NCBI RefSeq assembly: GCF_006345805.1
Contig: NW_021824004.1
Span: 1-20,369 of the forward strand
Direction of reading: 5' to 3'
From: Octopus sinensis
Taxonomy: Eukaryota
Length of the DNA: 20,369 nt
The translations under genes and the position numbers were made by a program. The notes beneath the pieces were generated by a model. That model saw only the letters and a program-made list of their open reading frames with translations, was not told the origin of the DNA and searched no databases. Each line of letters begins with the position of its first letter. The first letter of the stretch is position 1. Of the stretch, positions 2,571 to 6,615 are shown piece after piece.

Positions 2571-2780
2571 GGTGATACCTATATATATACCTGTACATAA
2601 CTGGATATATATATGTGTATATATATATATACACATACACACTCATACGCTCACACATATATATAAAACACAAACAGTTGTGATTACAGCTGTTTCATAA
2701 TTTAGTCCTACTTACTTTTTTTAAGTCTGAAGCAGATAACATATATATATCCTCTTTAACAATTATATATATATATATAT

Positions 2781-3414
2781 ATAATTAATCAATATAGGGT
2801 GGCAAAAAAAATTTTGTAGAATTTTTTTGCCACCAGCGGCCTAGTGGGAAAAAATTAAATATTCATAGACCATTTTTAAGTTCAACATCACAATCATTAT
2901 TATGGCCGTTCCTTGATTGTGATGTTGAACTTAAAATGGTCTATGACTATTTAATTTTTTCCCACTAGGCCGCTGGTGGCAAAAAAATTCTACAAAAATT
3001 TTTGCCACCCTATATTGATTAATTATGAATTTTCTGGTTAATTCCGTAATGGAATCGGCGGCTTATATTTATTTGCTGCCGATAATTTGGCGCGAGTGCG
3101 ATGATTTGAAAATTTTAGGTCAGATATTGCCGAGGCAGGGACGGGAATGCCTCGTGAAAAATATCTGTTCCGACTTGGCTATTTCTTACTGATGAATCTA
3201 AGGGACTATGGTAGATTGGCTTGATTTAATTTAATCAGGTTAGTTTACCATTAAACAGTAGACGAAACGGTGCATCGTATAAGAAATTACAGGGTAAATG
3301 TTTTTAATTTTCTCCTGGTTTACGGAATTGATGTTATTTTGCGGTTAAAGCTTTTGGCTGTTATTTCTAGTGGGTGAATGGCCTATTATGGCCGTTCCTT
3401 GATTGTGATGTTGA
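2781..3414 (+). mobile_element. Non-coding hammerhead-bearing retroelement (Penelope-like pLTR / non-LTR retrozyme) inserted in (TA)n
   Basis: Inverted arms 2781-2896 and 2914-3026. Identical 31-bp direct repeat TATTATGGCCGTTCCTTGATTGTGATGTTGA at 2898-2928 and 3384-3414 (period 486). Internal hammerhead. (TA)n on both sides. No ORF. Confidence 0.85.
3181..3287 (+). ncRNA. Type I hammerhead ribozyme with extended stem II
   Basis: Stem I ATTTCTTA 3181-3188 / TAAGAAAT 3280-3287. CTGATGA 3189-3195. Stem II TCTA 3197-3200 / TAGA 3259-3262 enclosing a 19-bp hairpin 3208-3226 / 3233-3251. GAAA 3264-3267. Stem III ACG/CGT. GUA triplet, predicted cut after 3279. The first stem II pair is A.C instead of the usual G-C. 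Confidence 0.88.
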
Positions 3415-3582
3415 TATATATATATATAATATATATATATATATTATATATATTATATATATATATAATATGTTATATGTATGTATATTATTGTAATTAT
3501 CAGTTAGTAAATAAATAAGTTAACATAATATAATGTCTAAAAGTTGATGAACCACCTATTGATCCCCTCCATTTTCTTATTG

Positions 3583-3751: not shown

Positions 3752-3885
3752 TTTCACCTCCTCTTTGTTGTTCATTTTTTTCCTCCTGGGGCCGATAAAA
3801 TAAATACCAGTTACCTGCTGGTGCTTATTCAACGTTCTGTATTTACCCGTCACATTCATGGTTCTCTGCCGTTGTTAGAAATCAA
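3752..3885 (+). repeat. Degenerate SINE 3' part, copy 1 of a local direct duplication
   Basis: Close match to 4088-4232. Contains the GGGGCCGATAAAATAAATACCAG variant of the SINE body seen at 5765-5790. Confidence 0.75.
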
Positions 3886-4087: not shown

Positions 4088-4232
4088 TTTCACCTCCCCG
4101 ACAGTCTACTTCGTTGTTCATTTTTTTCCTCCTGGGGCCGATAAAATAAATACCAGTTATCTGCTGGTGTTTATTCAACCTTCTGTACTTACCCGTCACA
4201 TTTATGGTTTTTCTGCCGATGTTAGAAATCAA
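4088..4232 (+). repeat. Degenerate SINE 3' part, copy 2 of a local direct duplication
   Basis: Shares TTGTTCATTTTTTTCCTCCTGGGGCCGATAAAATAAATACCAGTTA...GTTAGAAATCAA with 3752-3885. Confidence 0.75.
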
Positions 4233-5647: not shown

Positions 5648-6051
5648 AAGGCGGCGAGCTGGCAGAATCGTTAGCACGCCGGGCGAAATGCTTTGCGGTA
5701 TTTCGTCTGCCGCTACGTTCTGAGTTCAAATTCCGCCGAGGTTGACTTTGCCTTTCATCCTTTTGGGGTCGAGAAATTAAGTACAAGTTACGCACTGGGG
5801 TCGATGTAATCGACTTAATCCGTTTGTCTGTCCTCGTTTGTCCTCTCTGTGTTTAGCCCCTTGTGGGTAGTAAAGAAATATGTATTTCGCCTGTCTTTAT
5901 ATTCTGAGTTCAAATTCTGCCGAGGTCGACTTTGCCTTTCATCCTTTCGGGGTAGATAAAGTAAGTACCAGTTGTGTACCGGGGTCGATCTTGATGACTG
6001 GCCTCCTTCCCCAAAGTTTCGGGCCTTGTGCCTAGAGTAGAAAAGAATATT
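5648..6051 (+). mobile_element. Young dimeric tRNA-derived SINE, family A
   Basis: A-box-like TGGCAGAATCGTT and B box GAGTTCAAATTCC. The block GTATTTCG...TTCTGAGTTCAAATTC..CCGAGGT.GACTTTGCCTTTCATCCTTT.GGGGT occurs twice (~5698-5810, ~5882-5990). Matches an abundant octopus SINE as I recall it. Confidence 0.88.
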
Positions 6052-6069
6052 TAATCAGGTTTCTTTTAG

Positions 6070-6300
6070 ATCGGTGTTCAAATCCTGCCAAATCTATTCC
6101 TACCCTTCGTCGATAGCATACTATGCAATATTCATTCCGATTCTCTGCATTCGGAGTTCAAATCCCGCCGAAGTTAGAGTTACTTTTCTTTTTTTCAAGG
6201 TCAATAAGAAATTCCAATCCAGAATGGTAAATTGACGGAGCTGTAAGAGCTTGTGATTGAGCTGTTTGCGTTAAGTTCAAATCTTACTACGACCTCCTTT
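6070..6300 (+). mobile_element. Highly degraded family A SINE fragments
   Basis: Three GTTCAAATC B-box remnants (~6076, ~6156, ~6275); one is followed by CCGCCGAAGT and GGTCAATAA. Confidence 0.5.
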
Positions 6301-6615
6301 AGCGGACGGCTTAATCCTTTCTCTACTTTGAGGCTAACACCGAGCCCATGGGTGACTTTAGTGGACTCCACTCTGTTTTAAGCATCTTGGCCAAGTACTT
6401 GGACTTGAGGATATCTTCCTCTCTATTTCCCACCAGTTTCGGAGGCCTTATGAATAGTCATAAGCACTTTAATTGCGGTAGTACTAATGCCAGTCCTATC
6501 CGTCACTTCGTTAAGCTACCGGGGAAAATACTACCACTAAAACCAACATTAATAACAAATCTAGAACATCAACACTATCAACAACAATAACAATGTAAAC
6601 ACACAAATCTTACAC

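What the first reader, a model, noticed from the sequence alone, without database searches (positions are those of the whole stretch)
2898..3414. 486-nt terminally redundant, ribozyme-bearing non-coding unit: candidate cephalopod retrozyme / circular RNA
Seen: an identical 31-bp repeat at both ends (2898-2928, 3384-3414), one hammerhead inside, no ORF, and (TA)n flanks. Known: Penelope-like elements (PLEs) have hammerhead-containing pLTRs with short terminal extensions, and metazoan non-LTR retrozymes are small type I hammerhead repeats that yield circRNAs. Inference: this is slightly more than one turn of a 486-nt circular or tandem RNA template, copied in trans by a PLE reverse transcriptase. 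I cannot tell from here whether the family has been described.
Basis: partly seen in the sequence, partly recalled or inferred. Interest (0 to 1): 0.9.

Follow-up and report, generated by a model that had tools for sequence, protein, structure and literature searches.

The report
Ribozyme repeat copied from both ends
This is one of over a thousand insertions of a ~490-base non-coding repeat that carries a hammerhead ribozyme motif and lands in TA runs; its two arms almost always start at two different fixed points, which likely records a Penelope-type reverse transcriptase copying one predicted RNA circle from both ends of a DNA break.

Summary
The 31-bp repeat, type I hammerhead, lack of ORF and TA flanks are real.

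The genome holds 2,680 exact copies of a hammerhead 20-mer, in arrays of 1-17 turns, plus sister subfamilies (70-85% identical) with compensatory stem changes.

All arms start in (TA)n at one of two fixed sites about 100 nt apart (A, B). Of 84 insertions with both ends at fixed sites, 80 pair A with B. All turns and both arms of a locus share one haplotype (0.7-0.9% within, 5.1% between unbiased loci), and arms run unscarred through the cleavage site.

Best reading: a metazoan non-LTR retrozyme, likely copied by a Penelope-like dimer from one RNA circle. The genome's autonomous Neptune-like element shows the same end rule (4 of 4), but no sampled element shares sequence, so the partner is unknown. 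Cleavage, transcription and circularity were not shown. Some arrays show period-2/3 patterns a monomer circle does not explain.

The parts
2766..2780 (.). left half of the (TA)n target
   Evidence: sequence; 137 of 144 outer ends lie within 25 nt of a TA run
   Evidence: reverse complement of 2914-3026; same arm type in other loci
2898..3414 (+). forward arm starting at fixed site A: one 486-nt turn plus 31 nt, 5'-truncated
2929..3026 (+). A-to-B interval, the ~100-nt equivalent of the Penelope 'tail'; contains helix strand 2961-2968 (pairs with 3367-3374) and hairpin 2975-3009
   Evidence: ends of 127 insertion clusters; consensus fold of 17 junctions from three subfamilies, 45 pairs, 7 with two-sided change
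3023..3030 (+). start site B (inferred reverse-transcription start; single-stranded in the consensus fold)
   Evidence: end distribution; 584 forward-strand B|TA junctions genome-wide, control 0
3182..3286 (+). type I hammerhead: stem I 3182-3188/3280-3286, CUGAUGA 3189-3195, 68-nt stem II 3196-3263 (A-C mismatch at its base in this copy), GAAA 3264-3267, near-palindromic stem III 3267-3278, predicted cut 3279|3280
   Evidence: compensatory pairs across subfamilies; column counts
3409..3414 (+). start site A (same as 2923-2928 one turn earlier)
   Evidence: end distribution; 629 forward-strand A|TA junctions genome-wide, control 1
3414..3488 (.). right half of the (TA)n target
   Evidence: TRF row 3414-3488

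Best explanation
This is a non-coding hammerhead repeat family that inserts into (TA)n, and it is likely copied by a Penelope-like reverse transcriptase/GIY-YIG enzyme from one predicted ~490-nt RNA circle, each end of the cut target starting DNA synthesis at a different fixed site. Shown: tandem ~489-nt units, one hammerhead motif each, (TA)n targets, two fixed 3' ends about 100 nt apart, an A end opposite a B end, one haplotype per insertion, no scar at the cleavage site. Inferred: (1) tandem arrays are transcribed, neighbouring hammerheads cut out monomers, and a host ligase closes them (as shown for other animals in PMC7229834). (2) A Penelope-like enzyme, probably a dimer, binds the folded domain around A and B and cuts both strands of (TA)n. 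(3) One 3' end primes at A and the other at B, with 1-3 nt of AT pairing. (4) Both copy round the circle, displacing each other's product, for a fraction of a turn to many turns. (5) The two 5'-truncated cDNAs are joined head to head, or one is lost, giving single-arm copies. My odds by step: Penelope-type enzyme 0.9; circular template for most insertions 0.7; both arms from one RNA molecule in one complex 0.6.
For: End rule: 80 A+B against 2 A+A and 2 B+B among 127 clusters, the other 43 having one or no fixed end; binomial p 2e-19. It holds in the position-chosen sample (23 A+B, 1 A+A of 35) and in sister subfamilies (30, 1, 1 of 54). Genome-wide A and B junction counts are near 1:1, 629 and 584 on the forward strand. 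An intact RT+GIY-YIG element of this genome (781 aa) also ends in (TA)n, has a short end and a 33-nt tail end, and pairs them in 4 of 4 clean two-armed loci. Single template: substitutions per site 0.71% within an arm, 0.86% between arms, 5.05% between loci in the position-chosen sample; 42 haplotypes in 52 loci, 24 of which carry a variant fixed in all or nearly all turns and seen in no other of them. Not a cleaved linear monomer: at most 4 of 280 turns have an indel at any position of the cut site; 17 of 17 A arms run past it; 5' ends at the cut site abutting TA number 3 genome-wide, against 3 at a control site. B arms pass through site A in 17 of 17 and 23 of 24 loci. Ribozyme under constraint: two-sided changes in stems I, II and III; core positions near-invariant while N7 varies. 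Two RT start sites, cutting and extension of both strands and a predicted dimer are reported for a lizard PLE (PMC11167929).
Against: No transcription, cleavage or circle was shown here. No autonomous element sharing sequence was found among about 95 PLE loci. The tail is ~100 nt, against 30-40 nt in described PLEs and 33 nt in this genome's main PLE. 13 of 22 long arrays have variants shared by some turns only, with a clean period-3 pattern in L033 and a period-2 stretch in L034; L016 repeats a deleted unit twice. These need multimeric templates, later duplication or assembly error. The opposite arm was the single closest match in only 12 of 44 loci, though usually among the closest. The lack of locus-level variants in six core positions is not significant alone (P 0.35). 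The window's subfamily has A-U or A-C rather than G-C at the base of stem II, which may lower activity; 8 of 9 frog retrozyme dimers did not cleave in vitro (10.64898/2026.07.22.740005), and the lizard PLE used uncleaved RNA in vitro (PMC11167929).
Confidence: 0.65

Rival explanations
1. The template is an uncleaved linear multimer transcribed from existing arrays, and arrays are lengthened and homogenised later by unequal crossover. The Penelope-type enzyme is the same, but no circle is needed.
For: Period-3 (L033, one unit with a G8-to-A core change) and period-2 (L034) patterns; 13 of 22 long arrays with partly shared variants; duplicated deleted unit in L016. Uncleaved RNA was the main substrate in vitro (PMC11167929). 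Local amplification by unequal crossover is the model in 10.64898/2026.07.22.740005.
Against: A mutation arises in one turn; to be fixed in every turn and in both inverted arms it must pass a monomer bottleneck. That is seen in 24 of 52 loci, including ones of only 2-4 turns. Crossover cannot make inverted arms with fixed ends. 9 of 22 long arrays show no partly shared variants.
Confidence: 0.2
2. These are solo and tandem pseudo-LTRs of an autonomous Penelope-like element that I did not sample and that may already be catalogued.
For: Frog retrozymes match PLE pLTRs in 21 cases (10.64898/2026.07.22.740005). Only 150 of 5,029 GIY-YIG candidates and 111 of 19,204 RT candidates were scored. Repbase and Dfam could not be searched.
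Against: No fetched retrozyme locus tested carried a joined PLE coding region: 1 of 54 (L188) and 1 of 14 (L259) had a neighbouring PLE fragment, apparently a separate insertion. The PLEs seen carry short minimal hammerheads unlike this one. Subfamilies have diverged to 70% while keeping a ~473-490-nt monomer.
Confidence: 0.1
3. The inverted arm arises by fold-back self-priming of the first cDNA or of an antisense RNA, not by a second target-primed start.
For: Proposed for rotifer Penelope elements (PMC3846280). A few loci have near-symmetric breakpoints (L040 27/27, L045 126/126).
Against: In short loci such as L093, L098, L100, L109 and L111 the B arm holds unit positions 1-98, which the A arm lacks altogether. 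Most breakpoints differ between arms. Fold-back gives no reason for the second arm to end at the other fixed site in 80 of 84 cases.
Confidence: 0.05

Closest known systems
Metazoan non-LTR retrozymes (Cervera and de la Pena 2020, PMC7229834; Li et al. 2026, 10.64898/2026.07.22.740005)
   Same: [quoted passage not shown]
   Different: Unit of ~489 nt (their invertebrate range ~170-400; Li et al. 51-972). 68-nt stem II that Rfam misses. Strict (TA)n target. Fixed A/B ends, inverted arms and per-locus haplotypes are not described in the parts I read. No pLTR match found. Circles were shown there and not here.
EN+ Penelope-like elements, Neptune/Naiad types (Craig et al. 2021, PMC8557442; Arkhipova et al. 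2013, PMC3846280)
   Same: 5' truncation, head-to-head inverted 5' copy, a tail at only one end, (TA)n preference, hammerhead in the repeat.
   Different: No RT or GIY-YIG ORF. Tail ~100 nt instead of 30-40. About two thirds of clusters have both ends at fixed sites (84 of 127), against 4 of 40 for the genome's 4.8-kb PLE, a sample chosen for long arms.
Poseidon PLE of Anolis in vitro (Frangieh et al. 2024, PMC11167929)
   Same: Two internal RT start sites that define the tail, AT-rich target cut and extended on both strands, predicted dimer.
   Different: That work did not show that the two sites are used together, one per target end, and found no role for hammerhead cleavage or a circle.
Non-autonomous Chlamys elements such as MRC1 (passage in PMC8557442)
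   Same: Non-autonomous PLE passengers giving multicopy head-to-tail insertions.
   Different: They share 3' sequence with their autonomous partner and belong to a clade without canonical hammerheads.

Membership tests
non-LTR retrozyme | [quoted passage not shown] | tested here: met
   arrays of 1-17 turns of ~489 nt on many contigs
non-LTR retrozyme | type I hammerhead in each unit | tested here: met
   motif and stems; core kept in about 260-279 turns per position; compensatory pairs
non-LTR retrozyme | no protein-coding capacity, GC below 50% | tested here: met
   longest ATG frame 55 aa; 177 G+C of 476 columns
non-LTR retrozyme | no LTR, primer-binding site or polypurine tract | tested here: inconclusive
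   no true LTRs, ends are circular permutations; PBS and PPT not searched
non-LTR retrozyme | target-site duplication longer than 4 bp when present | tested here: inconclusive
   the target is (TA)n, so a duplication cannot be read
non-LTR retrozyme | self-cleavage of the transcript | not testable with these tools
   needs an in vitro assay
non-LTR retrozyme | accumulation of monomeric circular RNA | not testable with these tools
   only contigs were available; indirect genomic support
Penelope-like element (autonomous) | ORF with RT and GIY-YIG endonuclease | tested here: not met
   no PLE protein hit in the window; none joined to the retrozyme loci tested
PLE-mobilised element | inverted 5'-truncated copy and tail at one end only | tested here: met
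   80 of 84; tail ~100 nt rather than 30-40
PLE-mobilised element | microsatellite/AT-rich target | tested here: met
   137 of 144 ends within 25 nt of (TA)n
pLTR-derived retrozyme (Li et al. 2026) | sequence similarity to the pLTR of a PLE in the same genome | tested here: not met
   no significant match in about 95 PLE loci; sampling incomplete
PLE minimal hammerhead (PMC4209133) | 7-8 bp helix II, G10.1-C11.1 pair, little or no helix III | tested here: not met
   68-nt stem II region, A-U or A-C at 10.1/11.1 in the window's subfamily, 4-bp palindromic helix III

The most novel reading that the evidence does not exclude
These insertions are direct genomic records of rolling-circle reverse transcription in an animal: one Penelope-like enzyme dimer holds one ribozyme-made RNA circle, primes both ends of a (TA)n break at two assigned sites, and copies round the circle in both arms at once. 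The circle recruits the enzyme by its fold rather than by shared sequence, evolves as a viroid-like lineage through single-molecule bottlenecks (one subfamily has even absorbed a piece of its TA target at site A), and may pick up A-to-G edits as RNA.
Probability: 0.4. Interest if true: 0.8.

Novelty: new variant of a known kind. Interest (0 to 1): 0.62.

Why it matters
How animal retrozymes move, and why Penelope insertions have an inverted arm with a tail on one side only, are both open; the papers read say so (PMC7229834, PMC8557442, 10.64898/2026.07.22.740005). The link between the two has rested on co-occurrence and pLTR similarity. This young family, with over a thousand short insertions, carries the integration marks directly and in countable numbers. 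It gives a defined ~490-nt RNA, two mapped start sites and intact candidate enzymes in the same genome for an in vitro test. A long-stem-II hammerhead that Rfam misses also suggests such families are undercounted.

Tried and rejected
Rfam found no hammerhead in the window or the element; its miRNA hits reflect TA repeats and the inverted arm.

Expression: no RNA holder listed. Four contig sets from four studies (X1, X5, X7 guessed RNA; X15 unknown) cover all 29 bins of the unit, but they cannot show strand, ends, level or circularity, so I draw nothing on expression from them.

Partner search: a Pfam accession I recalled is not in the library. 30 GIY-YIG loci, 7 ORF loci (partly overlapping), 40 PLE-1 loci and 20 PLE-2/PLE-3 loci gave no significant DNA match. 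14 further loci picked by the site-B motif, 11 of them absent from the hammerhead lists, were all retrozyme fragments.

Cleaved linear monomer as template: rejected. There is a weak excess of 5' breakpoints near the cut (10 against 5.1 expected, p 0.03 uncorrected), but the genome-wide junction count equals the control.

RNA editing of the template: A>G is 16 of 87 locus-fixed variants against 15 of 243 turn-private ones (p 0.002), but A>G against T>C per base is not significant (p 0.11). Left as a lead.

My first subfamily-wide end classifier mis-called A ends as B and was replaced. An earlier one on the main subfamily gave 46 A+B, 0 A+A, 1 B+B of 72.

Earlier scan notes: nothing by sequence or place. 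The supplement of PMC7229834 was too large to read and may list further species.

Full report
Observation. The direct repeat 2898-2928/3384-3414 is exact, with spacing 486. The hammerhead is type I, with CUGAUGA at 3189, GAAA at 3264 and GUA at 3277-3279, and is the only one my motif scan found in the window. Rfam misses it. The longest ATG frame is 55 aa.

The family. The window is contig C475 of a 2.72-Gb assembly. A DNA search scored 39 of 1,316 candidates and returned 234 matches, the 150 listed at 94-100% identity, mostly ~489-nt tandem arrays. An exact 20-mer of the hammerhead occurs 2,680 times, reversed control 0; its first 100 places group into 35 loci in 81.5 Mb, which extrapolates to about 1,200. 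A degenerate hammerhead pattern (3,052 matches, control 0) and a motif from read ends (42 matches) revealed sister subfamilies at about 70-85% identity with the same architecture.

The ribozyme. On 16 copies from two subfamilies, 5 of 33 pairs show two-sided change, in stems I, II and III; 87.7% of cells pair, against 28-46% when partners are slid. These are few events on a tree, the shuffle control for number of such pairs was not exceeded (296 of 500), and stem II is partly misaligned. Core positions are near-invariant while N7 varies (189 T, 53 A, 21 C). The 3' half is biased by how 33 loci were chosen, and the locus-level test on the 5' half is not significant. Stem III is a near-palindrome in every subfamily seen, which fits dimer cleavage (PMC4209133, passages). 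Activity is untested.

Anatomy of insertions. I examined three sets: 37 top-scoring loci, 33 chosen by position on C1, and 54 chosen by sister-subfamily motifs. In the first two, 137 of 144 outer ends lie within 25 nt of (TA)n. 3' ends fall at site A (window 3409-3414) or site B (3023-3030), about 100 nt apart. 5' ends of 121 arms are spread almost evenly, so the 31-nt redundancy is incidental. Of 127 clusters of at least 200 nt, 80 are A+B, 2 A+A, 2 B+B, 41 have one fixed end (23 A, 18 B) and 2 none, one of these spurious. By eye one B+B call (L169) is a truncation and one A+A (L103) has an end 12 nt short. Genome-wide forward-strand junction counts are 629 A and 584 B (reverse counts are inflated by overlapping matches). 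A and B lie in unpaired segments of a fold conserved across three subfamilies.

This is the Penelope signature. An inverted 5' copy and a 30-40-bp tail often at only one end are described for PLEs (PMC8557442 and PMC3846280, passages), and the tail was mapped to two RT start sites in vitro (PMC11167929, parts 1-2 of 4). This genome has young intact RT+GIY-YIG elements. I call them Neptune-like from a cysteine motif before the endonuclease, matching the description in PMC8557442; no tree was built. The commonest ends in (TA)n, has a short and a 33-nt-tailed end, and pairs them in 4 of 4 clean two-armed loci out of 40; 31 had a single short end, 2 a single tailed end and 3 were complex. None of about 95 PLE loci shares sequence with the unit, so the partner is unknown.

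The template. In the position-chosen set, substitutions per site are 0.71% within an arm, 0.86% between arms and 5.05% between loci. 52 loci with two or more long turns hold 42 haplotypes, and 24 carry a variant fixed in all or nearly all turns and absent from the others, for example 16 of 16 turns in L031 and 12 of 12 in L113. Fixing single-turn mutations across an array needs a monomer-to-multimer step at each generation. A cleaved linear monomer would stop cDNA about 130 (A) or 230 (B) nt from its start. Instead 17 of 17 A arms and 15 of 17 B arms pass that point (7 complex loci and 1 unclassed were left out), 280 turns cross it with baseline indel rates, and TA junctions at the cut site equal a control, 3 against 3. 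B arms run through site A in 40 of 41 loci by script, the window itself being the undercounted one, which implies strand displacement if one RNA serves both. A circle explains all of this.

Against. 13 of 22 long arrays have variants shared by only some turns. L033 repeats a three-turn pattern over eight turns, one turn carrying a core G8-to-A change, and L034 alternates. These fit multimeric circles, later duplication or polishing error; the assembly's many homopolymer indels suggest noisy reads. The opposite arm was the nearest match in only 12 of 44 loci. No RNA evidence was obtained.

Novelty. The class is known: Cervera 2020 (parts 2-4 of 6 read; supplement unreadable) showed circles in coral, mussel and axolotl and proposed PLE mobilisation; Li 2026 (parts 1-3 of 5 read) links retrozymes to pLTRs, sampled no mollusc, and favours local expansion by unequal crossover; the 2020 review PMC7761336 (passages) says the repeats give no clue to their enzyme. 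Nine searches of the open library listed no description of this family, of a cephalopod retrozyme or of a counted A/B rule. Repbase, Dfam and subscription papers were out of reach, so the family may be catalogued.

Verdict. A real, young, non-LTR retrozyme family, a new variant by its long-stem hammerhead, TA target and 100-nt tail. Its value is as evidence on mechanism. Interest 0.62.

Noticed in passing
L174:2715-3190 and related loci (L151, L157, L163, L167): A ~473-nt sister subfamily carries a (TA)5-6 tract inside the monomer exactly at site A, as if it had captured target DNA; it could give the primer more to pair with.
   Followed up: partly
L033 (G000:C14:22995900-23001500): Period-3 variant pattern over eight turns, with one unit of the three carrying G8-to-A in the hammerhead core: a possible record of a trimeric circle.
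   Followed up: partly
L136-L149: Another, older-looking type I hammerhead family with a short canonical stem II; two copies 362 nt apart in L138/L139; some copies end in TA runs.
   Followed up: no
L117:1-566 and 5936-6501; L118 downstream of 5300: Two further unrelated hammerhead-like motifs with extended stem II and palindromic loop III near PLE loci, read by eye. The genome seems to hold many such families.
   Followed up: no
L116, L241-L249: Second young PLE family (775-aa ORF, many copies at 99%) with a minimal hammerhead in its 3' repeat, read by eye, and a TA tract at its own tandem junction.
   Followed up: partly
L230-L240: Third PLE family; its short end is preceded by the same 9 bases, at about the same distance from the TA run, as site A of the second retrozyme subfamily. 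Post hoc and AT-rich, so only a lead to the partner.
   Followed up: no
retrozyme loci L001-L113: A-to-G makes up 16 of 87 locus-fixed variants but 15 of 243 turn-private ones; strand asymmetry is not significant. Possible editing of the RNA template.
   Followed up: partly
window 3763-3885 and 4109-4232: A 124-nt direct repeat at 93% identity, 346 nt apart, just right of a TA run; no hammerhead found in it.
   Followed up: no
L010:1304-1400: A retrozyme insertion sits in the TA run at the 3' end of the main PLE family, showing that the two share targets.
   Followed up: yes
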